DNA from: Candidatus Latescibacterota bacterium
GTDB lineage: Bacteria; Latescibacterota; UBA2968; UBA8231
Direction: 5' to 3'
Assembly: GCA_965223905.1 (NCBI GenBank)
Contig: CBDCXV010000010.1
Location: forward strand, 192,001 to 256,000
DNA: 64,000 nucleotides
Part shown: piece after piece, positions 6,499 through 50,053 of the stretch
How the letters are laid out: each line of letters opens with the position of its first letter
Position numbering within the stretch: position 1 is the first letter of the stretch
The notes under the pieces: generated by a model
Told to the model about the DNA's origin: nothing
Databases searched by the model: none
Seen by the model: the letters and a program-made list of their open reading frames with translations, nothing else
Position numbers and translations under genes: made by a program

Positions 6499-6574
6499 GC
6501 GTACGAACGAGAGCGCCGCACCCTGCTCGCGGGGCGCCAGAGCGAATCGTACCGGGGGTGTACGGCGAGCGAAT
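6499..6574. repeat. Dispersed intergenic repeat (gcgtacgaacg family)
   Basis: Aligns in reverse complement to ~37467-37539, and over 18 bp to 3897-3914. Confidence 0.55.
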
Positions 6575-6599
6575 TCACGCGAAATTTGCGCGCGCAACA

Positions 6600-8204
6600 C
6601 TACAGCAACCCCACGATGGCGCGCGCCTCGTCGAGAGAATCGGGACTGTCCAGCCGGACCAGCGCCGGGTCGGGCAGCGACCAGTCGATGGCCCCCCAGA
6701 AGAGGCGGTCGTCCCCTCCGGGGGAACGTCCCAGGAAGCCCACCAGCCAGTAGCTCTGCGCCCTGTTCAGCACGCGCACCGAGCGCGGGGCAGAGACGCC
6801 GCAAAAGGGCAGCGGTTTCAGGGCGACCCCCTCGGCGGCGGTATCCCGCGTCAGGGCGTAGTGCGGCAGGGTCCCTTCCCCGGCAGGATCTCCGAGATCG
6901 GCGACGAAGGCGCACTCGGTCTCCGAGTACTGCGCCGCGATCGTGACATCGGCGATGCGCCGGCCTTCCGGGGCGCGGGCAGCAAGCGACTGCGTCTTCC
7001 AGGCCGCGGCCTCTTCCCAGCGCTCCCCCCAGGTGCAGAGGATTTCCTCAGGCCTGCCCACTGGGACGGTGAACAGGGTGTGGTTCTTCGCCAGCTTGCT
7101 CGCGTACTTGAAGTAGGTGAACCACGGGGTCGCGGTCTCGCAGCCGTCGACGATACCGGTCTCCCTCCAGGCTGCGCAGTCCCGCGACGAGTGCAGGACG
7201 ACCCGGCCTTCAGGCGAGGTGACCGCGAGGATGACGTCGAGGCCGTACTGGTGCACCTCCAGGGAGCGCACTTTCGCCGCGGCGATTCCGGCCACCGGCC
7301 TGCGCTCCCAGCGAACGAGGTCGCGGCTGAAGAGATGGCTCACCCCGGCCGCATGATCGGCGGCGTGGAACAGGTGAACACCGCCCCCGTGATGGAGCAG
7401 GGCGCAGGCGGCCACACTGCCCAACCCGGGCAACCCTTCGGCGAGGACCGCGCAGGTCTCGGGGTCGTCTCCGGTCGGCGCCGGCTGCGGGCGTTGCCGG
7501 CGATGGGCCGAGTAGCGGGCGGAGTTCGCCTTCTCGACGGTCGTCATGCCGGCCAACGGCTTCATCCCGGGGACGATGCGCCGCTGCGGGCACCAGCGGG
7601 TCAGCACGGCGTGCCGGGTCACCTCCGGGTCCGAGACGTTGGGAGAGCCGCAGTGCCCCATGAGGTGGTGAAAGAGGATGGCGTCCCCGGGCTCGGCGAG
7701 GAATTCCCGCGGCGGCCCGGAGTTCTCCGGTAGCGCCACCGCATCCTTGGCGGCCTGCCAGTTCTCCTCCATCAGCCCGCGGTTGCGCCAGGGAGAGCCG
7801 GGAAAAAAGATGAAGGCACCCCCCCGGGATCTGACGCGGGTCAGGAAGAGGAAGCAGCCGATGGCCCAGCCGTTCGGCATCAGGGTGGGATAGGCGTCGT
7901 CGACGTGGGCGGTCGCCCCGGCCCATTCCGCTTCCGGCTCGTAGGGGCGGACCATGTCCCTCCCGCTGGTCTTGCGCACCGGTTCGTTGCCGGGACCGAG
8001 CAGCTCGGCGACCGCGGCGATCAGGCGCTCGCTGGCGCAGGCGCGGATCCCGGGGAGGTCCCGGCCTTTGTCGTTGTCTTCCTCCAGCTCAGGAAGCACC
8101 GCGGAAATCGTCTCGGGAGAGACGGCGTTGGCCACGACGACGTACCCGTGCTCGAGAAAGTGCTCGTGGTCCGCCGCGGACAGTACCGTCCCGTTGCCGC
8201 TCAC
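6600..8204 (-). CDS. PhyH-family dioxygenase fused to a C-terminal probable beta-propeller domain
   Basis: N-half HFLEHGYVV, HVD, LMGHC; C-half has Asp-box-like SRDLVRW and SRDCAAW. Confidence 0.7.
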   Translation of the reverse strand: MSGNGTVLSAADHEHFLEHGYVVVANAVSPETISAVLPELEEDNDKGRDLPGIRACASERLIAAVAELLGPGNEPVRKTSGRDMVRPYEPEAEWAGATAHVDDAYPTLMPNGWAIGCFLFLTRVRSRGGAFIFFPGSPWRNRGLMEENWQAAKDAVALPENSGPPREFLAEPGDAILFHHLMGHCGSPNVSDPEVTRHAVLTRWCPQRRIVPGMKPLAGMTTVEKANSARYSAHRRQRPQPAPTGDDPETCAVLAEGLPGLGSVAACALLHHGGGVHLFHAADHAAGVSHLFSRDLVRWERRPVAGIAAAKVRSLEVHQYGLDVILAVTSPEGRVVLHSSRDCAAWRETGIVDGCETATPWFTYFKYASKLAKNHTLFTVPVGRPEEILCTWGERWEEAAAWKTQSLAARAPEGRRIADVTIAAQYSETECAFVADLGDPAGEGTLPHYALTRDTAAEGVALKPLPFCGVSAPRSVRVLNRAQSYWLVGFLGRSPGGDDRLFWGAIDWSLPDPALVRLDSPDSLDEARAIVGLL

Positions 8205-8253
8205 CTGCGCCGCTTTCCCCGCTGGAACCGGTTGGCGGTTTCGGCGATGCGGA

Positions 8254-8994
8254 TCATCCGGACTCCGGGATGTCGCGTCCCAGCGCCCAGTGGGCGCCGC
8301 GCCAGTACAGCTTCCGGTAGGTGGCGTGGCGCCAGGCGGTGTAGGTGTGCCCGGCGACGAGGCCGACGACGCGGCCGTTGCCGTTCTCCAGGGCCCAGCC
8401 GGCGATGTCGTGCCTCTTGTCCCTGGCGCCGAGGGTCTCGTAGAGCGGGACCGCGTCCGGGTGCTTGAGGATGACCCCGAAGTTCTCGTCCTCCGGCAGG
8501 ACGAAATCCTCGATCCCGGAGCTGATCGGGTGATCGGGGTTGAAGTTGTACATGGAGACGTCCTGCACCGGCCCGTGCATGATCCCCTCGATCCCCATCA
8601 TCTCGCTGAACTTCACCTGGTCGGGGGACCAGCAGGTGCAGTGCAGGGACATGAACCCCATGCCGCGGTTGACGACGTTGTCGACGATCGCCTCCTCGAG
8701 CCCGGCGCTCATGTACCCGTCGCTCTCCATGGAGCCCTCGTGAAAGGGGTCGGGGCACCATCCCTCGATCGGGCCGCCCCAGCGCGTGATCATCAGCAGA
8801 TCGGTGCCGGCGACGACCTCGGGCGTGACGTGGCGCGCGTCCTGGGTGAACAGCAGCCGCCACCCGGTCCCGTCGAGAACCTGCTGAATCGATTGGCGCT
8901 GCCCCATGTAGTTGTGCAGCTGATCTCCGCCGAGGTAGACGACTCGCGTTTCCCCCGCTTCCTTCGGCGGGATTCCGTTGCCGCTGGCACTCAT
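8254..8994 (-). CDS. ThuA-like domain protein (class I glutamine amidotransferase fold)
   Basis: GGD..H, GMGFMSLH, HPI..GIEDF...DE, GNGRVV...GH. Confidence 0.8.
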   Translation of the reverse strand: MSASGNGIPPKEAGETRVVYLGGDQLHNYMGQRQSIQQVLDGTGWRLLFTQDARHVTPEVVAGTDLLMITRWGGPIEGWCPDPFHEGSMESDGYMSAGLEEAIVDNVVNRGMGFMSLHCTCWSPDQVKFSEMMGIEGIMHGPVQDVSMYNFNPDHPISSGIEDFVLPEDENFGVILKHPDAVPLYETLGARDKRHDIAGWALENGNGRVVGLVAGHTYTAWRHATYRKLYWRGAHWALGRDIPESG

Positions 8995-37560: not shown

Positions 37561-38334
37561 CTAGCCGCGGAACGAGGGGTCCTTGTCTTCGACCAGGCGC
37601 ACCAGCGCGTCGAACTCCAGCTGGCCGGTGTCGGCGGCGCAGCGCGCGAACTCCCGCATCTGGCGCGCCGAGCGCTCGACTGCTTCCTGCGGAGGGTACT
37701 GCAGCCGGCCGCAGGCCATGGCGTCGAGCTGAACCCGGCAGGCGCTTTCGAGGCGGTACAGGTAGAGGAAGGCCTCGGCGATCGTGCGGCCGACCGACAG
37801 CAGGCCGTGGTTGCGCAGGATGAGGGCGTCGGCGCTGCCGAGGTCGCCGGCCAGCTTCTCCCGCTCCTCGAGCAGGAGCATGGAGCCCTCGAAGTCGTGG
37901 TAGGCGAGGTTCCCGTGAAAGCTCATCCCGTTCATGCTGACCGGAAGCAGCCCGCACTCCAGCGCGGCGACCGCCATGCCGGCGCGCGTGTGGGTGTGCA
38001 TGACGCAATGCGCGTCTTCCCGGTGCTCGTGGATGGCGCTGTGGATGACGAAGCCGGCCGGATTGAAGGAGTACTCGGAAGGCTCGACGAGGTTGCCGTC
38101 GAGATCGATCTTCACCAGGCCGGAGGCGGTGATCTCGTCGTAGCGCAGGCCGTACGGGTTGATGAGGAAGTGGTGCTCCGGTCCCGGCACCCTCATCGAG
38201 ATGTGGCCGTAGATCAGCTCGCACCAGCCGAGGTGGTCGAAAATCCGGTAGGCCGCGGCGAGCTGGACGCGCAGGTCCCGCTCGGCGGCGTAGGCTTCGT
38301 TGGTCTCGAATGTCGCCGGCAGCGTCGTGGTCAT
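37561..38334 (-). CDS. Class II aldolase/adducin family protein
   Basis: GHIS.R, IHSAIH, MHTH, LRNHG. Confidence 0.9.
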   Translation of the reverse strand: MTTTLPATFETNEAYAAERDLRVQLAAAYRIFDHLGWCELIYGHISMRVPGPEHHFLINPYGLRYDEITASGLVKIDLDGNLVEPSEYSFNPAGFVIHSAIHEHREDAHCVMHTHTRAGMAVAALECGLLPVSMNGMSFHGNLAYHDFEGSMLLLEEREKLAGDLGSADALILRNHGLLSVGRTIAEAFLYLYRLESACRVQLDAMACGRLQYPPQEAVERSARQMREFARCAADTGQLEFDALVRLVEDKDPSFRG

Positions 38335-38456
38335 GGTCGTCTCACTTGTTCCGAAGTCCGCGGCCGGACGCCCCTCCCGGGCGCGGCCGATTGGCGTTTT
38401 CCTGAGTATATCCCTTCTGCCACGATCCCGCCAAGCTCCCCGAGGGAGGTTTTTCA

Positions 38457-39587
38457 ATGGTAACCGACAACCGCAGCGCCGGCCCCTGGAAGCCGGTAGA
38501 GCGCGAGGGCTACGATCCGCTTCCGATCACCGCCCTCAAGGTCCACATGCTCGACGATCCGCATTCCGGCACCCGCGACGGCCTGCTCCGGATCCTCACC
38601 GAGGACGGCATCGAGGGCTGGTGCAACGAGATCGACGCGGAGACCGCGCGCGTGATCACCACCCGCTTCCGCGAGCACCTGGTCGGCCGCGACGCCCTCG
38701 GGCGCGAGCGGCTCTGGCACGACCTGCTGATGTTCGAGCGCCTCACCTGGCCGCCGAAGAAGCTGCGCGGCGCCATCGACACCGCCCTCTGGGACATCGC
38801 CGGCAAGCGGCACGGCCTGCCGGTCTGGCGCCTGCTCGGGGCCTGCCGCGACAAGGTGCCGGCGTACCGGACCCAGTCCGGCACCCTGGGCCCGGAGGGA
38901 CTGAGGATGGACCACTTCCTCGATTTCGCCCTGCAGGTCAAGGAAGAGGGGTACCTCGGAAGCAAGGACCACTGCTACGCCGGTCCCAGGTTCATGATCG
39001 ACCTCGCGGGGGAACTGCGGGATGCCGCGGGGCCGGATTTCCACCTGATGCACGACGCCGTCGGCTACTACGACGTCAAGGAAGCGATCCGGGTCGGCAG
39101 GGCCCTGGAGGAGCACGAATTCACCTGGTTCGAGGAACCGCTGCGCGACCATGACTTCACCGGGTACAAGCAGGTGCGCGACGCCCTGGAGATCCCCGTC
39201 GTCGCCGGCGAGTACTTCCCCCACCAGCTGCACAGCTACGCGCAGATGGTGGCCATGGGGGCGGTCGACACCCTCAAGCCGGCGATCGACATGGGGGGAA
39301 TCACCGAGATGCTCAAGCTCGCCCAGCTCACCTTCGCCTTCGGAGCCACCCTGCACGTGTCGGCGCACGGCCACATGTGGGGGTTCTCGTCGATCAACGT
39401 CAACGGCGCCATCGAGAACGGGTCCCTGCTCGAGGTGCACCCTCCGTTCGAGAGCCACACCAACCCGGCGATCAGGAACCCCCTGCGCATGTCCGGCGGC
39501 TACGTCGAGATGCCGGAAGCTCCCGGTCTCGGGGTCGACCTCGACTGGGACGCGATCGAGGACATGACCGTCGAGGTGATCGAGTAG
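38457..39587 (+). CDS. Mandelate racemase/muconate lactonizing (enolase superfamily) enzyme
   Basis: DTALWDIAGK..GLPV..LLG, MHD, WFEEP, AGE, PGLG. Confidence 0.9.
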   Translation: MVTDNRSAGPWKPVEREGYDPLPITALKVHMLDDPHSGTRDGLLRILTEDGIEGWCNEIDAETARVITTRFREHLVGRDALGRERLWHDLLMFERLTWPPKKLRGAIDTALWDIAGKRHGLPVWRLLGACRDKVPAYRTQSGTLGPEGLRMDHFLDFALQVKEEGYLGSKDHCYAGPRFMIDLAGELRDAAGPDFHLMHDAVGYYDVKEAIRVGRALEEHEFTWFEEPLRDHDFTGYKQVRDALEIPVVAGEYFPHQLHSYAQMVAMGAVDTLKPAIDMGGITEMLKLAQLTFAFGATLHVSAHGHMWGFSSINVNGAIENGSLLEVHPPFESHTNPAIRNPLRMSGGYVEMPEAPGLGVDLDWDAIEDMTVEVIE

Positions 39588-39657
39588 GTTGCCGGCGGAT
39601 CACCTCGGGGAGCCCCATGAAACCCAGCTGCGGAAAAACACCCGAACGAGGAGAGCC

Positions 39658-40611
39658 ATGAATACCCTGCCGCTGTGCGATCCCCACTTCCACATGTGGG
39701 ACCTCGACGACCGCCCCAACCCGAACCTCGGTCCCGAAGCCGAAGAGCTGATGCGGGCTTACCGGGCAGCGGATTACGACGCCGATGCCGCTAGCCTTCC
39801 CCCGCGGCTGAACCTGGTTTCGCGGGTCCACGTCGAAACCGTGGTCGGGCAGATGGAGGGGGGCCCCGTGGTGGACACGGTCTCCGAGACCGGGTGGGTC
39901 TGCGCCCAGCTCGAGGCGACGCAGGCGGAGCGGCCTTCCTACGTGGTCGCCTACCTCAATCTCGCCGGCGATCCCGCCGCGGCCGAGCGCACCCTCGAGC
40001 GGCATATCGAGGCCTCCTCCTCGCGGCTGCGCGGAGTGCGCATGATCCTCAACCACCACCCCGACAACCCGGACCTCACCTGGCCGCAGGTCGCCGGCGG
40101 CGAGCTGATGCACATTCCCCAGTTCCGCGAGGGCCTCGAGTTGCTCGCCGGCCGCGGCCTCTCGTTCGACCTCTCCTGCAATCCCCACCAGATCCCCGGG
40201 GCCGTCAGGGTTTTCGCCGACTTCCCCGGGCTGCGGGTCGTCGCCAACCACCTCGGGTTCCTCCACGACGGCGAGGACGCCGCTCACGAGGAGCTGTGGC
40301 GCGACGGCATCGAGGGCCTGGCGTCGCTGCCGAATGTCTGCATCAAGCTGTCGATGCTGTGGTTCGCCCGCGCCGGGTTTCACAGCGACCCGGGAAAGCA
40401 GGCCAAGGTGCGGGATCTCGTCCGCGAGGTGATCGACGTCTTCGGCCCGGAGCGCTGCATGTTCGCCAGCAACTACCCGGTCGACAAGATTCGCGGGATC
40501 TCGTTCTCGAATCTGTACGGGCTTTTCCTGGACTGGACGCAGGACCTGGAGGAAGACGAGCTCAGGGCCCTGTTCCACGACACCGCGGCGCGCGCCTACA
40601 ACCTCGATTGA
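39658..40611 (+). CDS. Amidohydrolase_2 (sugar-lactonase-like); its 3' end is the island attachment site
   Basis: DPHFHMW, NHLG, IKLS, FASNYPVD. Confidence 0.85.
   Translation: MNTLPLCDPHFHMWDLDDRPNPNLGPEAEELMRAYRAADYDADAASLPPRLNLVSRVHVETVVGQMEGGPVVDTVSETGWVCAQLEATQAERPSYVVAYLNLAGDPAAAERTLERHIEASSSRLRGVRMILNHHPDNPDLTWPQVAGGELMHIPQFREGLELLAGRGLSFDLSCNPHQIPGAVRVFADFPGLRVVANHLGFLHDGEDAAHEELWRDGIEGLASLPNVCIKLSMLWFARAGFHSDPGKQAKVRDLVREVIDVFGPERCMFASNYPVDKIRGISFSNLYGLFLDWTQDLEEDELRALFHDTAARAYNLD
40563..40611 (+). repeat. Left direct repeat (att-like, 49 bp)
   Basis: cagggccctgttccacgacaccgcggcgcgcgcctacaacctcgattga, identical to 45540-45588. Confidence 0.95.
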
Positions 40612-41085
40612 GCAGGGACACCTAAGACCAAGGGCACCCCATTGCATTCAATTCAATTAGGTAAAGGTCGAGGCGACTTCAAGTGCTAAAGGCACGCACG
40701 GACCAGAATAGATCCCTGAAGATCGTTTGCGGGACCTTTGGCGGGCTCTCAGTACCGTTGGGTTTGCGGCGGGAACGAATCCTTGCCCGTCCCTGGATCA
40801 ACCCGGGACACGAAGGGGCTTTCGGCGCATCGACACGGGCCCCGCCGGTGACAGTCGGCAAGGCAGATCAGATGACCTACTATAACTGAGGCCCCGCCCG
40901 GATTGAGGCTCAGAGCAGGCAGGATCCTCAGGCGACCCCTACATGCCGCCCATTTGTTGACCTCTTCGGAAACACGCACCGGCCTCGACTCATGAAGGTG
41001 TAGATAGGTTTTTTACCCCGTACAGTTAACGCGGTCGCAAGTTTCGCTAGCACCTCGACTGTACCGCCATCATTATTTCCCAGTT

Positions 41086-42480
41086 TCAAGCTGTAGTACC
41101 TGTTGGTCCCCCATGCTCCCAAAGGTCACCGACGACAGGTCCCCGAGGGTAATTCAAACCTGATCGCCGAATGATCGCTCCACGCGATAAAGGAACTTGG
41201 GCCCCCTTCTCGCAAACAAGGTTGAACTGACATGACGCGCAATGCGGCCCAACACATGCGGGAAACCCTTCACTAGCCGCGAGCCGTCTAGCCCACCGCC
41301 TTAACGCAAGTGTTATCTGACGGACGTCTTGCGCTGCAAACATAAACCGTTCCTCCTCACCGGTCGGGAGCATAATTCGACGAGCAATCACCGAACCCAA
41401 ATTGAATTCCAGCAGAACCGCTGCACTGTAAGCTGCAATCTGTAGCCAATCAGGAATCCGGGGCCGGGATGTCAACTCTCGATTCGAGGCTTTATAGTCG
41501 ATTACCTCGATTATGCCTGATGGGTCGAGCGCGACCCGATCGATCCGACCTACAAAGATCATGCCTTCACCTAGCTTCATCCGGACAGCCTTTTCAACGG
41601 CGATCGTTCTGAACTTCTCATTTCGAAACACAACGTCATAGTGAAAGGCTAGTATGTCCCTGCCCGCGTCGTACAGACGTTCTGCCGTGTCACCCTCCAC
41701 CTCATTGGGCAGCGTTTCCGCCAACCTGCCTTTGAACCAGCTAATGACCTCGTCCTTGACAGGGCCGTCGCCCATAGCGCCATACAGCCATGCAAGCGTC
41801 TCGTGCAGACGACTGCCAAGGAACATCTGTTCTGATTCCACAATCTCGGGAACGCGATCAACATATTTCAGCTGGTAAGAAAGGGGGCAAACCTCAAAGG
41901 ATGCCAACTGCGAAAAGGAAAGCTCACTCGGGATGTTGTGGGACCTGTTGTGGGACCTTGTGTTCTTGACATCACACACTGTCTCCCACGCCCAACGAAT
42001 TGCAGACGCAAGGTATGATGGGCTATAGTTCTCCGACGAAAGGGTAAGGTCGGCAGGAACCAGCCGTAACCTGGACTCAGTCCAACGAAGTTGGGACGCC
42101 CACGACCCGCCAGCCTGAGGTCGGCTCCACCCCGAACGCTCCCGAATGCGGCGTATGGCCGTACCGATACTGCAGTCTAGCAGCACAACGAAGGAGGTAA
42201 GTCCATGCAAGCGAATCCGCTCGATGATCTCTTCAAAGTCCCTAGAGGCGCCGCTGCACTCAAAAATGACCGGCGATGAAGACGCCGACGATGTGATTTG
42301 TTCAGCGATGGCAGATGGACATTCTTCAGGAGTATGCAACCGCCGAAAGTCCTCAACGGGAAAGTAGCGTGCGCCCAACGACGATGCGAGCCTCCGACAT
42401 ACCGCGGATTTCCCGGCACCTATTTGGCCGATGACCACAAGAACCGAGTCACTAATACCCTTTAGCTCGTCCCTATGCAT
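41086..42480 (-). CDS. P-loop (nucleotide kinase-like) domain fused to a Cas4/RecB-like PD-(D/E)xK nuclease with a 4-Cys motif
   Basis: GQIGAGKS; LSFSQL...CP; GRIDRV...IDYK...QIAAY; HCASCQFNLVC; ATG 42480 overlaps the upstream stop. Confidence 0.85.
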   Translation of the reverse strand: MHRDELKGISDSVLVVIGQIGAGKSAVCRRLASSLGARYFPVEDFRRLHTPEECPSAIAEQITSSASSSPVIFECSGASRDFEEIIERIRLHGLTSFVVLLDCSIGTAIRRIRERSGWSRPQAGGSWASQLRWTESRLRLVPADLTLSSENYSPSYLASAIRWAWETVCDVKNTRSHNRSHNIPSELSFSQLASFEVCPLSYQLKYVDRVPEIVESEQMFLGSRLHETLAWLYGAMGDGPVKDEVISWFKGRLAETLPNEVEGDTAERLYDAGRDILAFHYDVVFRNEKFRTIAVEKAVRMKLGEGMIFVGRIDRVALDPSGIIEVIDYKASNRELTSRPRIPDWLQIAAYSAAVLLEFNLGSVIARRIMLPTGEEERFMFAAQDVRQITLALRRWARRLAASEGFPACVGPHCASCQFNLVCEKGAQVPLSRGAIIRRSGLNYPRGPVVGDLWEHGGPTGTTA

Positions 42481-43387
42481 CGTCGCCCTTAGACCTTGGT
42501 GCTCTAGAGCCAATTACCTTCGACAGTGTGTCGTTGAACAGCTTGTCGGAAAATCCGGCGCCAAACCCAAAAACCACAAAAAACCCAAGCCGGGCAGGGG
42601 CATCATCTGGCAGTTTTATTGGGAAAAAACCCGAGAGCAGCATGGACACGACGAATAGAGCGGCGCATGCCCCAAGACAAGCTCTAGCACCCATGTCTGA
42701 CCTAAAGAGCTGGGAGAACTCATAGCGCACTCGTTCGCTTCGGACACTCTTGAGCCGGGAGAAAACAGCACCCATACCGCCTGACAGGACACCTGATCCC
42801 AGGGACATGAGCGTCGATGCCCAACTCGGGATCTCAAATGTCGAAATCATGAAGCAAACCACAAGCAATACAAGAAGGATGGAAATAATCCAAATGGCCA
42901 GTCTGTTGACATCACGGGTTACAGTTGCACGTTCTTCGTTCAGCCGGTTATATCGTGACGCCGATTCCTGCAACTCCAAGGTAAGTTGCCGTAGGCGCTG
43001 GCGGACGGTCTCCTCTTGAACTATCTGGCCATTGATCGAGATGAGACTTGAGATGTCCTCCTTCCATGCGTCACGTCGGCCCTCGTCAAAGCGGTACAGG
43101 GTTTCCCTGAGTCGCACCCATGTCGGATAAAGCAAGACCTCCGGCTTGAGCAGGCATAGTTCTGCTTCGACCTCGTGGATCGCAAGGACACGTTGGCCAT
43201 GGTCCTCCAGCGTTGAGACCTCCTCCAGCCTGAGCTGAATCTCCTGTAAACGCTCATCAAGACGTTCCCCTTGGGCGGTCAACTGCATTGCTTGCGCTAA
43301 CTCACTTCGCAAACGCGACAAACGCGCATCTAGCTCTGCATCGACTGGCTTTAGTTCGCCCGATCCTGTAGATCTTCGACGCTTCAT
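42473..43387 (-). CDS. Membrane protein: N-terminal helical/coiled-coil region + ~4 C-terminal TM helices
   Basis: Leu/Glu/Arg heptads in the first ~150 aa; hydrophobic segments with GGMGAVFS and FGAGFSDK; ATGA overlap with the RT stop. Confidence 0.8.
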   Translation of the reverse strand: MKRRRSTGSGELKPVDAELDARLSRLRSELAQAMQLTAQGERLDERLQEIQLRLEEVSTLEDHGQRVLAIHEVEAELCLLKPEVLLYPTWVRLRETLYRFDEGRRDAWKEDISSLISINGQIVQEETVRQRLRQLTLELQESASRYNRLNEERATVTRDVNRLAIWIISILLVLLVVCFMISTFEIPSWASTLMSLGSGVLSGGMGAVFSRLKSVRSERVRYEFSQLFRSDMGARACLGACAALFVVSMLLSGFFPIKLPDDAPARLGFFVVFGFGAGFSDKLFNDTLSKVIGSRAPRSKGDDA

Positions 43388-45048
43388 TCCGCTACTCGCA
43401 GCAAGGCCTCCCTGAGCTCGAACCCCATCGGGCCCGAGAATGGAACGGTTGGTTCGCTATGGTTGTCTGCCGGCGGGTAAGCGTGTTGTGACTTACCGTC
43501 CGCCATTGCAGGCAAGGCTGCCAATCCACGCACGGTATGGCTGGTGTCTTTGGCAGTGAGTTCAACCAAGAGTCGCCGATGTTCCGGGATGAGCCACATA
43601 AACTCGATTGCAATTCTTCGCGCCATCGGGGACCGTGAATCCGTCAACAGTGGGAAGATTTGTTTCGCGATTGCCGAGCGTTCATGTTTTGGTTGCTGGG
43701 CCATTAAACAGGCATGCAAGAGCACTAAGGCATATGGATGAAGGTTTCCGCAGGCGGAATAAGACATGTCCTTCAGCGCGTTACGAGTGGACACATCGGG
43801 GGGCTGGTCTGCACTGAGAAGCGCATGCAAAAGGCAAATGGATTCGCTGTCCGTCACTGCCCGCGCGATTTGCTTGACTGCTTGGATCCCCGTACCACTT
43901 GGCCAGTTAAGGATGCGAAGGTAGGACGATATTTCCTTTTCAGCGGTTGGGAAACGCGTTAGGTCATCGATGGCTTGTGTGGCTAGTACCGAAGAATGTA
44001 AGTGTGAAGCCAAGGTGTAGATCCTCTTCCACAGTCGGGCGTGTTCCATCGACTGCCCCCGATCCGTCTCGACAAGCTTCTTAAACGCATCACCCTGCGA
44101 TCTTGACAGGGGTCCGCGCGAACTCGCCATCATTAGGCTGGTGACCATTCGGTGTTCGTACGTGAGTACTTGACGTTCGAAAGCCACTAGCGAGCTCATT
44201 ACCCGTGTCTTGCCCTCATTTATCCGAAGTCCTATTGGTTCCAGTGCGGTGGACAGTGCCATCAACGCGCCCTCGACCGCGCCCGAGTCTACGGCGATGA
44301 AAAAGTCGTCAACCCACCTGAGGTGTCCAGCGATTGCCGGCTCGCGAACGAGCTGTTCGTCGACCGGTCCTAGGACAAGGTCCGCTATGATCCAAAACAG
44401 GCTGTCTTGCGTAACGGGGAGTCCCGAACGAGTCTTACCGAGGTGGTCCGGGATGGAATTGATATCTCCGATCGTGTGGAGAGCCCTTTCGATTATCTCT
44501 TCTTCGAGCTGGGCATCCCGTAAGGCGAATTCAATTCTGCAAATCGGGATGGACGCAAAATAGTCTTGGACATCAGCGACAACTACAGTCTTGCCTCCTA
44601 CCAGCATGTGGCGGATCCACATCGGGACGGTATCCGACCAGAGTTCGTAAAGCTGTCCTTCCATACATTTCAGCCACAATTGCGAAGCAGAAACGGAGTG
44701 TGGCAGCGCGAGATCCCGCTCATCCATTTGCTCCGCGATCACTTGGAGAGCTACGGAGGTTACGAAGTCGGGGACCACTTCTAAACGTGTTCCGCCGCCT
44801 TGTTTTGGGAGAGTAATCGACTCCAACTCCACAGGGCTTGACGTGGCGAAGTTGCGTGCCCCGGATTCCCCGTCAAACTCAGCGTAGCCCAGTGGGTCCG
44901 CAAGCAGGCTTTTTGCCCACCTCTGTCGGCAGACCTCAATTGCAGCCAACACATCAGCTATCCTGTTGTTCATGAACCTGTCGTAACGTTTCTGGGCTAT
45001 AGCCTGGTTATAGCCGATCGTGAAGGCAAGCGTAAGCACGAGCGGCAT
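43384..45048 (-). CDS. Reverse transcriptase (UG/Abi/DRT-like) with helical C-terminal extension; alternative start ATG 44973
   Basis: LPKQGGGTR, VADVQDYFASI, GLPV, RWVDD, GLRINEGKT in canonical RT order. Confidence 0.85.
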   Translation of the reverse strand: MPLVLTLAFTIGYNQAIAQKRYDRFMNNRIADVLAAIEVCRQRWAKSLLADPLGYAEFDGESGARNFATSSPVELESITLPKQGGGTRLEVVPDFVTSVALQVIAEQMDERDLALPHSVSASQLWLKCMEGQLYELWSDTVPMWIRHMLVGGKTVVVADVQDYFASIPICRIEFALRDAQLEEEIIERALHTIGDINSIPDHLGKTRSGLPVTQDSLFWIIADLVLGPVDEQLVREPAIAGHLRWVDDFFIAVDSGAVEGALMALSTALEPIGLRINEGKTRVMSSLVAFERQVLTYEHRMVTSLMMASSRGPLSRSQGDAFKKLVETDRGQSMEHARLWKRIYTLASHLHSSVLATQAIDDLTRFPTAEKEISSYLRILNWPSGTGIQAVKQIARAVTDSESICLLHALLSADQPPDVSTRNALKDMSYSACGNLHPYALVLLHACLMAQQPKHERSAIAKQIFPLLTDSRSPMARRIAIEFMWLIPEHRRLLVELTAKDTSHTVRGLAALPAMADGKSQHAYPPADNHSEPTVPFSGPMGFELREALLRVAE

Positions 45049-45360
45049 CTAGTGCTGCCGGCACATCGCTTGGTCGGGTGCCTTCCTCATCGAGCAGGGT
45101 AGCTGTCGGCGTTTGGCGACGTCGATTCCGAGGGTGTACATGGGACGCTCCCTGCCAAAAAGGGGCTGAAGTTGCCCAAGATCGGGTGACGCTAGCGGGC
45201 ACGTCTTCGTAGCCAGATCAGGGAACTGGGTCCTTGTCGCAGGGGAACCTGCTCGAGGAAAAAATCAGTCAAACCCCAGCAGACTCGCTGGAGACAGGAT
45301 CGCTTCAAGTCCAGAACCAAGCAAGCGCACCTTACGTGCTCAGGTATCCTCGTACGAGGA
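44995..45360 (-). ncRNA. Putative structured ncRNA upstream of the RT
   Basis: Dense hairpins and a long-range stem (45083-45098 with 45248-45260); no credible ORF; strand and ends inferred. Confidence 0.45.
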
Positions 45361-45539
45361 ACGCCCATGGCTGGTTCACTCGTCTCGAAACTTCCGTAGA
45401 TATCTGTAGGGAAAATAAGCCACTTTTTTGCCCCTCAATCAAAAGCGCTAAACGCACGCACGGGGTCAACTTCGGGGCGGGGTCGACAGCCCTATCCCGG
45501 CTGACAGCGGCGGATCGAGGGCGGATCGGTCAGAGAGGC

Positions 45540-45588
45540 CAGGGCCCTGTTCCACGACACCGCGGCGCGCGCCTACAACCTCGATTGA
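45540..45588 (+). repeat. Right direct repeat (att-like, 49 bp)
   Basis: Identical to 40563-40611. Confidence 0.95.
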
Positions 45589-45607
45589 CCTGACCGCCGC
45601 CCCGCGG

Positions 45608-46900
45608 TCACAGGCCCTGCAGCTCGATCTCCTGCTTGCGGTGGCAGGCGGCGACGTGCGGAAACCCGCCCTCGCTGCCGGTCTCCTCGAGCGCCGGCTC
45701 CCGGCTCCGGCAGAGGTCGACGCCGTGCCGGCATCGGGGCGCGAAGGCGCAACCCCCCTCCACCGCATCGGAAGCCCCCGGTTCCCCCGCGGCATCGGCG
45801 TCCTCCTCCCCGGCGACCCTCCAGGGAGCGTGCGGGTCGGGCGGCGGGGGCCGCGTGCAGCAGGGTGGCGGTGTCAGGTTGAGGATCTGCGCCTGCACGC
45901 TGACGTCGAGAGCGGAGACCGGCTCGTCGGCGACGATCAGCGAGGGGCTAACCGCCAGGGCGCGGGCGATGCCGATGCGCTGCCGCTGGCCGCCGCTGAA
46001 GGCGTGGGGGTAGCGGCGGATGTAGCGCGGGTCGAGCCCAACCCGCTCCATCAGCTCGGCGACGCGGCGCTCGCAGCGGCCGCGGTCCCAGCCCCGGGCC
46101 CTGAGCGGCTCGGAGATCAGGTCCATCACCGGCATGCGGGGGTTCAGGGAGGAGTACGGGTCCTGGAAGATCATCTGGATGTCGCGGCGCGCCTCCACGA
46201 TCTCGCCGCCCTCGAGCCGAGCCAGGTCGACCACCTGTCCGTCGCCGCGCCGGAACAGGATGCGGCCCGCGGTCGGGTCGAGAGCGCGCAGTATCAGGCG
46301 CCCGGTGGTGGTCTTGCCGCAGCCGCTCTCCCCGACCAGCCCCAGGGTGTGGCCCGCGTCGAGGCGGAAGCTGACGCCGTCGACCCCCCGGACCGTTCCC
46401 GCGACCCGGCGCAGCAGCCCCCGCCGCACCGGGAAGTGCTTGCTATGGCCCGGCCGCACCGCGGCGCGCCCCGGCATCTCCCGTTCGCAGACCTCCCCCA
46501 CCTTCTCCCGGCAGCGGGGGTGGAATGGGCATCCGGACGGCAGCGCATGGGCGCTGGGAACGCTCCCCTCGATCGGCTCGAGCTTTTCCGCCCTGGCCGC
46601 GAGGTTGGGTATCGAGCGCAGCAGGGCCGCGGTGTACGGGTGCGCCGGGGCATCGAAGATCCTCTCGACCGGGCCCTCCTCGACGACGCGGCCGAGGTAC
46701 ATCACGTAGACGTAGCTCACCGTGTGCGCGACCACCCCGAGGTCGTGGGTGATCAGCATCAGCGCCAGGTCGAGCTCCGCCGCGGATGGCGCGCATCTCC
46801 CTGCCGCCGGGGTCGAGCCGGGCGAGGTCGACCGCGGATCCGCCGTTCCCGGGCCGGAACAGCATCTCGCCAGCCCCCCCGTCAGGGCCGCCGGAGACAC
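45608..46900 (-). pseudogene. Degraded oligopeptide ABC ATPases (DppD C-terminus joined to DppF) with internal deletions
   Basis: [10 protein letters not shown]...HPYT...GCPFHPRC then [24 protein letters not shown]; the H-loop region of the second domain is missing. Confidence 0.75.
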
Positions 46901-46998
46901 GGAGAGGAAACCGGTGAGCCTCGTCCGCTTCCGACGTCCTGTCCTGCCCTGCGGCCCCTCTCGCGGGGCGTGATGCCTGGATCAGTCAATGGCTCCTG

Positions 46999-49674
46999 TC
47001 ACCGCAGCAGGGTCATCTTGCGTACGATGGCTTTGTCTCCTGCGGTGAGCCGGTAGAGGTAGACGCCGGCGGCCACGGGGCGGCCCTGCTCGTCGCGGCC
47101 CTCCCAGAAGACCTCGTGTATCCCGGCCTTCAGGGTGCGTCCGGGCAGCAGGGTCTTCACCACCTGCCCGGCGAGGCTGTAGATGACCAGGGAGGCCTCC
47201 CCGGTTTCGGTCAGCTGGAAATAGAGGGTCGTACTGGAGTTGAAGGGGTTGGGGGCGGCCAGGGCGGCCAGTCCTTTCATCCCGGTCATTGCCAGCTGCC
47301 CGGCCAGGGCCTTGGCCGCGGCCGAGTGGGTGCGGCCGGTGGCCCGCGCCGACCAGCCGCTGGTGCCTTCGGCGTTGCGGGCCCGCACCCGCACCGTGTA
47401 TCCGGTGTGGGAGGACAGTCCGGTCAGCAGGGTGCCGGTGGCCGAGCCGCCGGCCGTCAGCGAGGACCAGATGCCGTAGCTGTCGCAAAAGAAGACCTCG
47501 TTGGTCTTGCAGTAGTGCACGTCGTTGCCGCTGAGCGCCGGCCGGCCGCGGTTGTCCGGGGCCGTCCAGCTCACCTCCAGGCGCTCATGGCCCATGTTGT
47601 CCGGCGCGCTCACCCTCACCCCGGAGGGCGGGTCCGGCGGCTCGGACACGTCGGTTACCGTCACCCTCACCGTTCGCTCCGCCTGCAGCGACCCGTCGCT
47701 GACCTCGAGGGTCACCTGGTGGGACCTCCCGGCCTCGTAGTCGGGCGCCGTGTCGAAGGTGAGGGTGCGCGTCGTGCCGGTCCCCTCCAGCTGGAAAGCG
47801 CTCGCCTCCGTACCCGTCCTCGACCAGGTGATGGCGTCGCCGTCCGGGTCCCTGGCCGTGTACCGGCCCACCGGGCCGCTGCCGTTCTCGGCGAAGGAGA
47901 CGCTGGTGGGGCCACTGGTGAAATACGGGCCCCGGTTGGGCTGGACCGGGGTCGCCGAGGCGCGGGCCGCCGCACCCGCCCCGGCCGCGTTGCGCGCCCG
48001 CACCTCGAAGCGGTAGCGAGTGCCGTTGCTCAGCCCGGTCACCGTCCGGGTCGTATTCGTGCCCACCCCGGTCCAGCCCGACCAGGAGCCGCTGCCGGCC
48101 CGGCGCCGGTACTCGTAGCCCGTCAGGGACAGGCCGCCGTCGGAGACCGGCGCCCGCCACGACAGCGCCACCTGCCTGTTGCCGGCTTCTGCGGTGAAAT
48201 CCCTCGGCACCGACGGCACGGTGACCACCGGGGCGGTCTCGCCGCTGGCCGCCGCCTTGTCCGGCCCGTGCCCGTCGTCGTAGTCCACCCGCGCCCGCAG
48301 CTGCTTCCCCACATCCGCCGTCACCGGCGTGTAGCGGGACGTGGCCGCAATGGGGTAGCGCGCCGACCGCTCGATAGGCACCCACCCCGAACCCGCGTCC
48401 GCCCGCCGCTGCCACTGCCAGGCCACCGCCTCCAAGTGGCCGTCGACGTCCGTCAGGGTGGCCGTCATCCGCTGATCCACCTCCGGCGACGCCGTCGACA
48501 GTCGCACCGTGCCGGGGGTGTCGGCCGGCCTCACCGACGACGTCGCCGCGCTCTGCGCGCTCTTGTTCGGACCGTGCCCGTCGGTGTAGCCGACCGTGGC
48601 CCGCAGCTGCTTGCCCCGGTCGGCGGCCACCGGCGTGTAGTGGGACAGGTCCACAATGGGGTAGCGCGGCGACCGCTCGATAGGCACCCACGCCGAACCC
48701 GCGTCGGCCCGCCGCTGCCACTGCCAAGCCACCGCCTCCAGGCCGCCGTCGAAGTCCGTCAGGGTGGCCGTCACCCGCTGATCCACCTCCGGCGACGCCG
48801 TCGACAGTCTCACCGTGCCGGGGTGGTCCGTGTCGTCGACCAGGGTTACCGTCGCGCTCGCCGGCGTGCCCGCCTCGACCCTCTCCGGCAGAGCCCCGAA
48901 TCCCACAAGCACCGTCTCGTCATCCTCGTCGTCGTCCTCGGTCGCCGTGATCGTAAACGACTGCGAGGTCGTGCGGCCCGAAAACGACAGCGTGTCTTCC
49001 ACCCCCGGCCACGTCACCGTGTAGTCCCCCGACGCAGGGTCTCTCGTGATCGGGACCTTCACCAACTGTTCCGCCTCTGCCGACAGCCGCACCGTCAGCG
49101 TCGCCGCGGCGCCCCCTTCACTCGCCGAATACGTCGAATCGCCGTAGGTGACCGTCAGCGGCGGCCACGTCACCGCGTCGGTGGCCGCGCTCTGGGCGCT
49201 GTCCGGGCCGTGGGCGTCCGTGTAGCTCACCGTCGCCCGCAGCTGCTTGCCGACATCGGCGGCCACCGGCGTGTAGCGGGACAGGTCCGCAATGAGGTCG
49301 GGGTTGCGCGCCGACCGCTCGATAGGCACCCACCCCGAACCCGCGTCGGCCCGCCGCTGCCACTGCCAAGCCACCGCCTCCAAGTGGCCGTCGAAGTGCG
49401 TCAGGGTGGCCGTCACCCGCTGACCCACCTGCGGCGTCGTCGTCGACAAGCTCACCACGGGCGTGCCCACGTCGTTGTCGACCAGGGTCACCGTGGCGCT
49501 CGCCGGCGTGCCCGCGCTCACCTCCTCCGGCAGATCCCCGAACCCCAGAAGCACCGTCTCGTCGACCGTGTCGTCATCCTCGGTCGCCGTGACCGTAAAC
49601 GTTTGCCGCTCCGCGCCCGAAGAAAACGACAGCCCTCCGTCCGTCAGCCCGGCCACCGTGAAGTCCCCCGACGC
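46999..49674 (-). pseudogene. 5'-truncated large secreted adhesin-like protein (Calx-beta-like, 3 internal repeats, FN3 x2, cadherin-like, FlgD-Ig C-terminus)
   Basis: W.AP.SDGG...GYEY and YRFEVRARN FN3; PDYEA cadherin; PNPFN...VRKMTLLR; N-terminus replaced by unrelated DNA at ~49675. Confidence 0.8.
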
Positions 49675-50053
49675 GAATTGAAAAATCATGGGGGCGATGA
49701 TTTGCTCGATCGCGGGCTGAAAATCGAGGAACTGGACAGTGAGGGGGTCCTTCACGCCCTTGGCTTCCGGCGAAAGCAGCCGTCTCTTTCGCTTCCGCGA
49801 CAGCTTTGCCCTTGCCTTGCGGCAAGGAACGGTTGGACCCTGCTCACCGGCGACCGTACGCTTCGTGAATTGGCCAGCGAGGAGAATGTCGATTGCCACG
49901 GGGTTCTTATGGCTTCTCGACCGCATGTTCGAGGCTGCAGCTCCCAGCGCCAGCAAGCTGTACGCAGGCCTGGAAGCGATCAGTTCGCACCCTCGGTGCA
50001 GGCTACCCAGGTCGGAAACCCGCAAGCGTCTCGTGCGCTATTCAACCACTTGA
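49674..50053 (+). pseudogene. PIN-domain (DUF3368-like) remnant with frameshifts
   Basis: Across frames: [26 protein letters not shown]...DCHGVL/WLLDRM...RCRLP. Confidence 0.65.

What the first reader, a model, noticed from the sequence alone, without database searches (positions are those of the whole stretch)
41086..45360. Candidate undescribed RT defence system: RT (WVDD) + coiled-coil/4TM protein + kinase-Cas4/RecB-like nuclease fusion
Seen: three minus-strand genes are translationally coupled (ATGA overlap at 43384-43387, 8-bp overlap at 42473-42480) and are essentially the only cargo of a discrete lower-GC island. The RT has the core motifs, no group II intron maturase or DGR context, and a ~270-aa helical C-terminus. 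Known: retrons and DRT/UG/Abi RTs are anti-phage systems, often pairing an RT and ncRNA with a membrane or nuclease effector (e.g. DRT10 with SLATT), and Abi-like RTs carry helical-repeat tails. Inference: I do not recognise an RT paired with both a TM protein and a nucleotide-kinase/PD-(D/E)xK fusion as a described system. The RT product could activate the membrane effector and/or be processed by the nuclease.
Basis: partly seen in the sequence, partly recalled or inferred. Interest (0 to 1): 0.92.

Follow-up and report, generated by a model that had tools for sequence, protein, structure and literature searches.

The report
Three-gene reverse-transcriptase defence candidate
A small piece of foreign DNA carries three tightly linked genes (a reverse transcriptase, a membrane protein of no known family, and a kinase fused to a DNA-cutting enzyme) that stay together in distant bacteria and look like an undescribed type of anti-virus system.

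Summary
Three overlapping minus-strand genes (RT 43384-45048, membrane protein 42473-43387, kinase-nuclease 41086-42480) are the only intact genes of a 4,977-bp low-GC insertion. It is flanked by a 54-nt direct repeat and absent from 2 of 2 same-genus genomes.

The RT belongs to the defence-associated UG/Abi reverse transcriptases. It is a sister clade of group UG13a, not a member: it scores 79 bits in a partial match, against 316-614 bits for true UG13a. At E<=1e-30, 0 of 21 family representatives hit the UG13a model, against 77 of 82 neighbouring sequences.

All 4 of 4 relatives with enough flanking DNA keep the order RT, membrane protein, kinase-nuclease. They come from Pseudomonadales, Spirochaetia and a metagenome. 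No conserved non-coding RNA, SLATT domain or known defence model fits the partners. The literature searches found no such triad.

A defence role is inferred, not shown. The most likely mechanism is untemplated DNA synthesis by the RT, handling of that DNA by a Cas4-like Fe-S nuclease-kinase, and a membrane effector.

The island's arms are debris of IS110-family and IS91-family elements.

Verdict: a real, conserved, apparently undescribed variant of the DRT kind. Interest is moderately high.

The parts
40558..40611 (.). Direct repeat copy 1. It is the native 3' end, with stop codon, of the amidohydrolase-like gene 39589-40611.
40612..41085 (.). Kinase-nuclease-distal arm, with no intact gene. 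Positions 40681-40764 resemble part of a repeat unit that lies next to IS91-family (Y2_Tnp) genes elsewhere in the genome. Positions 40681-40701 repeat 45443-45463 (19 of 21).
41086..42480 (-). Kinase-nuclease fusion, 464 aa. The N-terminal part (~1-175) is a P-loop kinase fold with Walker A GQIGAGKS. The C-terminal part (~185-435) is a Cas4/RecB-type PD-(D/E)XK nuclease with D314, D328-Y329-K330, Q347/Y351 and four invariant Cys (198, 414, 417, 423).
42473..43387 (-). Membrane protein of no known family, 304 aa. It has a conserved cytoplasmic helical domain (~14-160) followed by 3-4 hydrophobic helices (~162-280).
43384..45048 (-). Reverse transcriptase. The longest ORF is 554 aa; relatives begin to align near residue 26-33, so the start may be the ATG at 44973. 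It has an RT core with RWVDDF and a helical C-terminal domain that is homologous over its whole length to UG13a RTs.
45076..45464 (-). Remnant of the 5' end of an IS110-family element: the non-coding leader plus about the first 22 codons of the transposase. The ATG is at 45141, and a 4-nt gap shifts the frame. It is 73% identical to an intact copy elsewhere in the genome.
45484..45539 (.). 57-nt stretch, 79-81% like the sequence just 3' of IS91-family (Y2_Tnp) transposase genes found at many places in this genome.
45535..45588 (.). Direct repeat copy 2, a duplicated gene end, 52 of 54 identical to copy 1.

Best explanation
The three genes are one horizontally moving, single-copy operon. It most likely encodes an anti-phage system of the defence-associated reverse transcriptase (DRT, UG/Abi) kind, with a partner set not described so far.

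Shown:
- The RT is a sister clade of UG13a and shares its whole architecture.
- The partners are a Cas4-like nuclease with a predicted Fe-S cluster fused to an apparently intact small P-loop kinase, and a membrane protein of no known family.
- The triad and its tight gene junctions are conserved across phyla.
- The cassette is an insertion absent from close relatives.

Inferred:
1. Like the studied Class 1 RTs (AbiK, Abi-P2, DRT4, Drt3b), the RT makes DNA without a dedicated RNA template, probably protein-primed. No room or conservation for an ncRNA exists.
2. The nuclease domain threads single-stranded DNA ends, as Cas4, AdnB and Exo5 do. It either trims the RT product in uninfected cells or attacks phage DNA once triggered.
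3. The kinase domain spends ATP on a nucleotide or on a 5'-OH DNA end, which could license a 5'-phosphate-dependent nuclease.
4. The membrane protein is the effector or anchor. It stops the infected cell, or places the enzymes where phage DNA enters.
For: Triad conserved:
- tblastn finds RT, membrane protein and kinase-nuclease in that order in L002, L003 (Pseudomonadales MAGs), L004 (Spirochaetia MAG) and L008 (metagenome). That is 4 of 4 loci with downstream DNA. L007 is cut.
- Junctions are tight.
- Indirect support: 36 of 47 RT hits share their longest-contig length with a hit of one of the partners.
- Adjacent locus tags F4X40_06180 and F4X40_06185 name the two partners in a Chloroflexi MAG.

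RT identity:
- Best PADLOC model is RT_UG13a, 8.6e-23.
- hhalign of the family against UG13a gives probability 100, E 6.4e-48, 486 aligned columns.
- The catalytic motifs are invariant.

Nuclease and kinase:
- PDDEXK_1 at 2.4e-29.
- Foldseek matches to ACE1, AdnAB, Cas4 and Exo5 for the nuclease, and to shikimate, gluconate and adenylate kinases for the kinase. The model has pLDDT 89.
- Catalytic residues and Cys residues are invariant in 38 relatives.

Accessory, mobile character:
- Low GC and an empty site in 2 of 2 congeners.
- Single copy in four genomes.
- The only family-type RT among the 168 genomes searched in its phylum.
- Some defence-type neighbours: an AbiEi-like gene beside L004 and a patatin-like gene beside L008.

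Class 1 RTs making untemplated DNA: abstract of 10.64898/2026.05.04.722794 (search listing) and introduction passages of 10.64898/2026.10.27.754916.
Against: - No experiment, and no expression data.
- The defence context is weak. L002 and L003 are flanked by ordinary genes: HupE/UreJ and a P-type ATPase beside L002; Opp permeases, glyoxalase and acetyl-CoA synthetase beside L003. The window flanks are metabolic genes.
- Mestre et al. 2022 rated the defence prediction for UG13a as 'inconclusive'.
- The α-repeat nature of the RT tail rests on profile homology and on one precomputed HEAT_2 hit among 47 relatives, not on a structure.
- The role assigned to each partner is by analogy only.
- Only four full loci could be read. 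The contig-length test is indirect.
Confidence: 0.6

Rival explanations
1. It is the same kind of system, but already catalogued. The family would have been lumped into UG13a, or into an unclassified group, in the UG/Abi survey, with these partner clusters listed only in the figure or supplement.
For: UG13a is the best PADLOC model, and homology spans the whole length. The survey says 40 of 42 groups have fused or associated genes, and gives the details in Figure 2 and Table S2. These could not be seen.
Against: - At E<=1e-30, 0 of 21 family representatives reach RT_UG13a, against 77 of 82 neighbours.
- The family sits on its own branch with support 100.
- The main text names no kinase, Cas4-like or such membrane partner for any group.
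- 'UG13a' occurs in only one work in the library.
- The one UG13a-like RT in the same phylum whose neighbourhood was read sits between hsdM and hsdS and has neither partner.
Confidence: 0.15
2. The cassette is a selfish element rather than a defence system. It could be an addiction (toxin-antitoxin-like) module, or a retroelement that moves by its own RT and nuclease. The long flanking duplications would be its footprint.
For: - RT plus a PD-(D/E)XK nuclease recalls retrotransposons with a restriction-like endonuclease (recalled, not from a call).
- Direct repeats flank the cassette in two unrelated loci: 54 nt in the window and 73 nt in L003.
- There is no integrase inside.
Against: - It is single copy in all four genomes searched.
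- The arms outside the three genes are not conserved between loci, so no element ends are shared.
- In the window the arms are debris of IS110-family and IS91-family elements that are multi-copy in this genome. These offer an ordinary route of transport.
- L002, L004 and L008 show no flanking repeat.
Confidence: 0.08
3. It is a DNA-metabolism or stress module with no role in conflict with phages, for example membrane-associated repair or nucleotide salvage.
For: Cas4/AddB/Exo5-type nucleases and small nucleotide kinases act in repair and salvage (fold matches). Several loci lie among housekeeping genes.
Against: - The distribution is sporadic across phyla at 38-61% identity, and it is absent from congeners.
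- It has foreign composition.
- Every studied member of the UG/Abi RT lineage acts in defence (passages).
Confidence: 0.07

Closest known systems
UG13a reverse transcriptases (UG/Abi family, Mestre et al. 2022; uncharacterised)
   Same: Best-scoring named group. Profile-profile homology runs over 486 columns, including the C-terminal helical domain. The catalytic box is similar: RWVDD here, RWMDD in the UG13a consensus.
   Different: The match to the group model is only 55-79 bits and partial, against 316-614 bits and full length for true members. It forms a separate clade. It is ~520-555 aa against ~600 aa. The one UG13a-like RT whose neighbourhood was read lacks the two partners.
Class 1 stand-alone RTs: AbiK, Abi-P2, DRT4 (UG15)
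   Same: An RT-like domain followed by a helical domain, with no ncRNA. This is the expected model for the chemistry: protein-primed, untemplated DNA synthesis (passages).
   Different: Those act as single proteins, whereas here two conserved partner genes are translationally linked. Sequence likeness is weak: Drt4 39 bits and AbiP2 32 bits; UG15 structures at E 0.004.
DRT10 (UG17 RT + ncRNA + SLATT membrane effector)
   Same: An RT paired with a small membrane protein as the presumed effector (abstracts in the search listing).
   Different: That is a Class 2 RT with a templating ncRNA. Here RT_UG17 scores only 29.6 bits, no conserved ncRNA exists, the membrane protein is not SLATT (0 of 38), and there is a third gene.
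UG7 (PADLOC model named Drt8) variant with a PD-(D/E)XK partner
   Same: A Class 1 RT with a neighbouring PD-(D/E)XK nuclease gene (passage in Mestre et al. 2022). Drt8 is the third-best model, at 54 bits.
   Different: That partner is a stand-alone nuclease-like protein. No kinase fusion, no four-Cys Cas4-type domain and no membrane gene is described in the text seen.
Cas4-family nucleases outside CRISPR (ACE1 of Argonaute systems; AdnB/AddB nuclease domains; Exo5)
   Same: Best fold matches of the C-terminal domain, E 1e-9 to 6e-6. It has the RecB-type motifs and four Cys.
   Different: It is fused to a shikimate-kinase-like P-loop domain and linked to an RT. There is no helicase, Cas1/Cas2 or Argonaute nearby.

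Membership tests
UG/Abi reverse transcriptases (defence-associated RTs) | RT palm motifs with catalytic aspartates, and best matches to UG/Abi group models rather than to intron, retron or CRISPR RTs | tested here: met
   The top hits are DRT/UG models: UG13a 79 bits, UG33 59, Drt8 54, UG36 41.5. D159, D247, D248 and K280 are invariant.
UG/Abi Class 1 | C-terminal α-helical repeat (αRep) domain fused to the RT | tested here: inconclusive
   Homology to UG13a continues through the tail. A HEAT_2 hit is precomputed for 1 of 47 relatives. That UG13a is in Class 1 is recalled, not read in the text seen.
UG/Abi Class 1 | [quoted passage not shown] | not testable with these tools
   This needs biochemistry. 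The only support here is the absence of a conserved ncRNA.
UG13a group | Strong, near full-length match to the group profile (PDLC03749) | tested here: not met
   The window RT scores 79 bits over model positions 159-445 of 589. Four other family members score 55-73 bits, whereas four true members score 316-614 bits at full length. At E<=1e-30, 0 of 21 family representatives match against 77 of 82 neighbours.
UG13a group | Placement inside the group in a tree | tested here: not met
   In a FastTree of 103 rows, the 21 family rows form one side of a branch (support 100, stem 0.81). The 75-row cluster holding the four checked UG13a members is separate. Caveats: midpoint root, no other UG groups included, and FastTree only.
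DRT10 (UG17 + ncRNA + SLATT) | SLATT-domain membrane partner | tested here: not met
   0 of 38 membrane-protein family members hit any SLATT model at E<=0.05.
DRT10, DRT2, DRT9 and retrons | Conserved structured ncRNA next to the RT | tested here: not met
   Rfam finds none at E<=1 in 40000-46200. Upstream regions of 6 loci do not align beyond the near-identical pair L004 and L007. The arms have no significant match in the other loci. Intergenic space in L003, L004 and L008 is short.
Group II intron RT/maturase | Match to the maturase-RT equivalog, and an intron RNA | tested here: not met
   TIGR04416 scores 27.8 bits against a cutoff of 300. There is no intron RNA.
Cas4 / RecB-type PD-(D/E)XK nucleases (C-terminal domain of the third gene) | D...(D/E)xK and QxxxY motifs plus a four-Cys cluster site | tested here: met
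   PDDEXK_1 at 103.5 bits. Cas4 models at 1e-11 but below the NCBIfam cutoff, 41.9 against 65. D314, D328, K330 and C198, C414, C417, C423 are invariant, and Q347 and Y351 are nearly invariant. Fold matches.
CRISPR-associated Cas4 | Neighbouring cas1/cas2 genes or a CRISPR array | tested here: not met
   There are no such ORFs or repeat array in 38000-48500.
P-loop small-molecule/nucleotide kinases (N-terminal domain of the third gene) | Walker A plus a full kinase fold | tested here: met
   G18, G23 and K24 are invariant. Profile matches to shikimate kinases cover residues 5-161. Fold TM-score (target) is 0.6-0.67 to shikimate and gluconate kinases. The substrate is unknown.

The most novel reading that the evidence does not exclude
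This is a new mechanistic type of DRT. DNA made by a Class-1-like RT would be both the substrate and the switch of a Cas4-like nuclease. The nuclease's own kinase domain would phosphorylate 5'-OH DNA ends (or recycle dNMPs) to license digestion. The whole machine would be tied to a new family of membrane effector. That would be a three-part immune logic (polymerase, kinase-nuclease, membrane gate) with no described counterpart.
Probability: 0.2. Interest if true: 0.8.

Novelty: new variant of a known kind. Interest (0 to 1): 0.62.

Why it matters
Defence-associated reverse transcriptases have repeatedly shown unexpected chemistry, such as gene synthesis, poly-dA decoys and telomerase-like repeats. 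Many UG groups remain unstudied, and Class 1 is the least understood.

This locus gives a compact (about 4 kb), cleanly bounded, cross-phylum conserved operon. It pairs a Class-1-like RT with two partners whose active-site residues are intact, so it can be tested directly.

If it defends, it adds a new DRT type. It would also link RT-made DNA to a Cas4-family nuclease outside CRISPR and Argonaute systems, and define a new membrane-effector family of 82 clusters at 90% identity, with no Pfam domain precomputed for any of them.

The kinase-Cas4 fusion (87 clusters) would gain its first biological context.

Tried and rejected
Conserved ncRNA:
- Rfam found nothing in 40000-46200 at E<=1.
- Upstream regions of six loci do not align, except the near-identical L004 and L007.
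- tblastx and blastn of both arms against L002-L004, L007 and L008 gave only chance-level hits.
- Rejected as a conserved part of the system.

Membrane protein:
- SLATT or any Pfam domain: none.
- PDB by sequence: best E 0.28.
- Foldseek against PDB and BFVD: 0 matches at E<=0.001.
- The ESM Atlas gave only unnamed clusters.

Other searches that led nowhere:
- Promoter and terminator scan of 40400-45700: fewer sites than in shuffles.
- Plasmids: only distant hits. The RT matched 3 Leptospira records at 22.8% identity, and the nuclease matched 1 Desulfomonile record at 25.7%.
- Viral contigs: no relative.
- Complex prediction (kinase-nuclease 1-445, RT 296-554, membrane protein 1-165 as the partner): verdict 'no answer'. 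This is no evidence either way.
- The look-up of sequencing runs: no RNA holder listed.
- The PDB entry 9wy8, the best solved relative of the RT (E 8e-11), could not be traced to a paper.

Retrotransposon reading: it was considered because of the flanking repeats, and judged unlikely (single copy, arms not shared).

Empty site for L003: the only relative with the same oppC gene (G173, L039) has a different downstream context, so the origin of the 73-nt repeat is unresolved.

How the 49-54-nt duplication in the window arose is not explained. By recall, IS110-family and IS91-family elements do not make such duplications.

Supplements of papers were closed, so Table S2 and Figure 2 of PMC9226505 were not seen.

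Full report
**What is there**

One search lists three minus-strand ORFs:
- 43384-45048, 554 aa: the RT.
- 42473-43387, 304 aa: the membrane protein.
- 41086-42513: the kinase-nuclease, 464 aa if it starts at the ATG at 42480.

The junctions were read directly. ATGA lies at 43387-43384, and ATGCATAG at 42480-42473.

GC is 0.52-0.58 across 40750-45499, against 0.62-0.74 on both sides.

**The island is a true insertion**

A 54-nt direct repeat lies at 40558-40611 and 45535-45588. It is 52 of 54 identical with 49 nt exact, and the copies are 4,977 nt apart. It is the 3' end, with stop codon, of the gene 39589-40611.

Two same-genus genomes carry the orthologous flanks at 89-97% identity, directly joined through one copy of the repeat. 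Window 40611 corresponds to L014 position 1498 and window 45540 to L014 position 1546; L015 behaves the same.

The RT, the membrane protein and the kinase-nuclease are each single copy in the genome.

Logan contigs of three runs from two studies hold the island: a 4,988-nt contig spanning 40582-45569 with no differences in X1 and X2, and a 4,750-nt contig with 9 differences in X3.

**The RT**

- Pfam sees only a sub-threshold RVT_1 match, 16.3 bits against a cutoff of 29.6.
- PADLOC models place it among the defence RTs: RT_UG13a 79.1 bits (protein 153-435 against model 159-445 of 589), UG33 59.2, Drt8 53.6, UG36 41.5.
- NCBIfam gives nothing near a cutoff. The group II maturase scores 27.8 against 300, Drt3a 19.5 against 200, and Drt4 19.1 against 450.

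A word-indexed search found 47 clusters at 47-61% identity (the window's own cluster at 100%), almost all from metagenomes. In 29 aligned sequences the motifs ADV (D159), RWVDDF (D247, D248) and LNxxKT (K280) are invariant.

A profile search of 1.84 billion representatives gave 31 hits at E<=1e-30 and 196 at E<=1e-10. Scores drop sharply from the family (124-773 bits) to proteins of about 600 aa at 116 bits or less.

Those outer proteins are true UG13a. Four tested members score 316-614 bits over nearly the whole model, whereas four further family members score 55-73 bits in partial matches. At E<=1e-30, 0 of 21 family representatives hit any PADLOC model, and 77 of 82 outer rows hit RT_UG13a.

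In a FastTree of 103 rows of 450 aa or more (shorter hits were left out), the 21 family rows form one side of a branch with support 100. The four verified UG13a members lie in a separate 75-row cluster. The tree has a midpoint root and includes no other UG groups.

Profile-profile comparison shows that homology to UG13a runs through 486 columns, including the helical tail. Probability is 100, E is 6.4e-48, and identity is 18%.

The RT is therefore a sister group of UG13a with the same architecture, not a member of it.

Mestre et al. 2022 (PMC9226505; passages and section 22 read) split UG13 into a and b and rated the defence prediction for UG13a as 'inconclusive'. The main text names no partner genes for it. 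Its Figure 2 and Table S2 could not be seen.

**The partners**

The third gene has a PDDEXK_1 domain at 2.4e-29, covering residues 198-435 of the 475-aa reading. It also has sub-threshold P-loop kinase hits: AAA_18, SKI and CoaE.

Its family has 87 clusters at 31-69% identity (the window's own at 100%). All carry PF12705, and many have precomputed AAA_33, AAA_18, SKI or Zeta_toxin hits.

In 38 aligned members the following are invariant:
- Walker A residues G18, G23 and K24.
- D314.
- D328-Y329-K330.
- Four cysteines: 198, 414, 417 and 423.
- Q347 and Y351 are nearly invariant.

The predicted structure has pLDDT 89.2 and pTM 0.87. The nuclease half matches ACE1, AdnAB, Cas4 SSO0001, Exo5, RecE, MGME1 and Dna2. 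The kinase half matches shikimate, gluconate, adenylate and UMP/CMP kinases. PDB profile hits and the Atlas agree.

The second gene has 82 clusters of about 300-320 aa, with no Pfam domain precomputed for any of them. None of 38 members hit SLATT or anything else above noise.

Its model has pLDDT 81.4. It is all-helical, with a four-to-five-helix N-terminal part and a long helix that runs into the first of 3-4 hydrophobic helices. It has no fold match in PDB or BFVD.

**Is the triad conserved?**

Pattern scans found three full relatives among 185,579 species genomes: L002 and L003 (Pseudomonadales MAGs) and L004 (a Spirochaetia MAG). They also found two in metagenomes: L008, and L007, which is cut.

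tblastn finds all three proteins in the same order in L002, L003, L004 and L008. That is 4 of 4 loci with downstream DNA. In L002 the membrane gene is split over two frames. Junctions are overlaps or gaps of 0-33 nt.

An indirect test uses the longest-contig length listed for each hit. 36 of 47 RT hits share that length with a partner hit, and 20 of the 24 whose contigs are 10 kb or more do so. Two partner rows counted as 'not recurring' are the L004 genome and the L008 contig, where adjacency was seen directly, so the test undercounts.

**No ncRNA**

Rfam finds nothing. The upstream and downstream regions are not conserved. Several loci leave little intergenic room.

This fits what recent papers say of Class 1 systems, that they carry out untemplated synthesis (abstract of 10.64898/2026.05.04.722794; passages of 10.64898/2026.10.27.754916). 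Those texts name DRT1, DRT3, DRT4, DRT9, DRT10 and DRT11, and none has this make-up.

**Context**

- L004 lies beside an AbiEi-like gene, and L008 beside a patatin-like gene.
- L002 and L003 lie among ordinary genes.
- Among the 168 genomes searched in the window's phylum, 11 (including the window's own genome) match the UG13a model at E<=1e-12. Only the window's RT is of this family; the others are 27% identical or less.
- One UG13a-like RT in that phylum (202 bits) sits between hsdM and hsdS/Dam and has neither partner.

**The arms of the island**

Window 45076-45464 is 73% identical to the 5' leader plus about the first 22 codons of an intact IS110-family transposase gene elsewhere in the genome. 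That gene is C10:1628903-1629889 and carries DEDD_Tnp_IS110 and Transposase_20. The remnant is frameshifted and ends 28 nt before the RT ORF.

Window 45484-45539 and 40681-40764 resemble a repeat unit that lies next to IS91-family (Y2_Tnp) genes. That unit occurs at about 28 places, in arrays spaced 3-6 kb apart with varied cargo, including a GmrSD gene.

The cassette has therefore travelled in insertion-sequence-rich DNA. How the 49-54-nt duplication arose is not explained.

**Mechanism: shown and inferred**

Shown:
- Gene content and conserved linkage.
- Intact catalytic residues.
- Mobility.
- Relatedness to defence RTs.

Inferred, in falling order of confidence:
- An anti-phage role.
- Untemplated, protein-primed DNA synthesis.
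- Handling of single-stranded DNA ends by the nuclease.
- A kinase step on a nucleotide or on a DNA 5' end.
- A membrane effector or anchor.

**Verdict**

The cassette is cleanly bounded, conserved across phyla, and unmatched by the defence models and papers searched. It is a new variant of the DRT kind rather than a new kind, and its function is untested.

Noticed in passing
window 45076-45464 (minus strand); own genome C10:1628596-1629889 (L056 596-1889): The region upstream of the RT is a truncated, frameshifted 5' end of an IS110-family element: the leader plus about 22 codons, with the ATG at 45141. An intact 328-aa paralogue lies elsewhere in the genome. The leader of such elements is where bridge RNAs are encoded (recalled). 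Whether the remnant still drives or regulates the RT operon is unknown.
   Followed up: partly
own genome, e.g. C10:546000-562000 (L055), C10:1601000-1647000 (part in L056), C10:343000-383000, C1:928000-955000, C11:524000-553000: About 28 copies or fragments of an IS91-family (Y2_Tnp) element lie in arrays spaced 3-6 kb apart, with varied cargo between them. The cargo includes GmrSD, a PDDEXK_4 protein, a DUF2971 protein and an IS3-type transposase. It looks like a gene-capturing array that may collect defence genes.
   Followed up: partly
window 45608-46900 (minus strand): The ABC-transporter ATPase gene beside the island lacks 160 nt and 85 nt that both same-genus genomes have (L014 1050-1209 and 389-473). 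Its translation has an odd proline-rich middle. It is probably broken or misassembled.
   Followed up: partly
L003 5203-5275 and 9916-9987: A 73-nt direct repeat (94.5% identical) also brackets the cassette in a Pseudomonadales MAG. One copy lies inside the oppC-like gene upstream, and the other 140 nt after the kinase-nuclease gene. The empty site could not be reconstructed from the one relative found.
   Followed up: partly
L004 1252-1441 and 5595-5773; L004 4602-5594: A 190-nt repeat (76% identical) lies just upstream of the RT and again 4.3 kb further upstream. It brackets DUF1828, Nudix_N and AbiEi-like genes, which may be a neighbouring island at the same site.
   Followed up: no
L002 7545-8451: The membrane-protein gene of this locus is read in two frames (residues 14-119 and 104-303 of the query). 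This is a frameshift or a sequencing error.
   Followed up: no
window 40582-45569 against its flanks, runs X1-X3: The island contig has lower depth than the flanking contigs in all three runs: 12.6 against 30-34, 5.2 against 7.5-8.3, and 3.1 against 36-39. This would fit a population in which only some cells carry the island. Contig depths are a weak measure.
   Followed up: no
window 45531 joined to 40923, runs X2 and X3: Contigs join these two places with 11 other letters between them. They may come from other copies of the IS-related repeats rather than from a circular form. This is unexplained.
   Followed up: no
L034 (G012:C2:3651000-3665000) 6551-8332: A 593-aa UG13a-like RT (202 bits) in the same phylum sits in a low-GC stretch between hsdM and an hsdS-like gene, followed by a Dam-type methylase. 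It is an RT embedded in a type I restriction-modification locus.
   Followed up: partly
window 46999-50025 (minus strand); repeats at 48256-48823 and 48531-49674: A 1,008-aa ORF has internal tandem repeats of about 300-640 nt at 82-88% identity. It looks like a repetitive surface protein.
   Followed up: no
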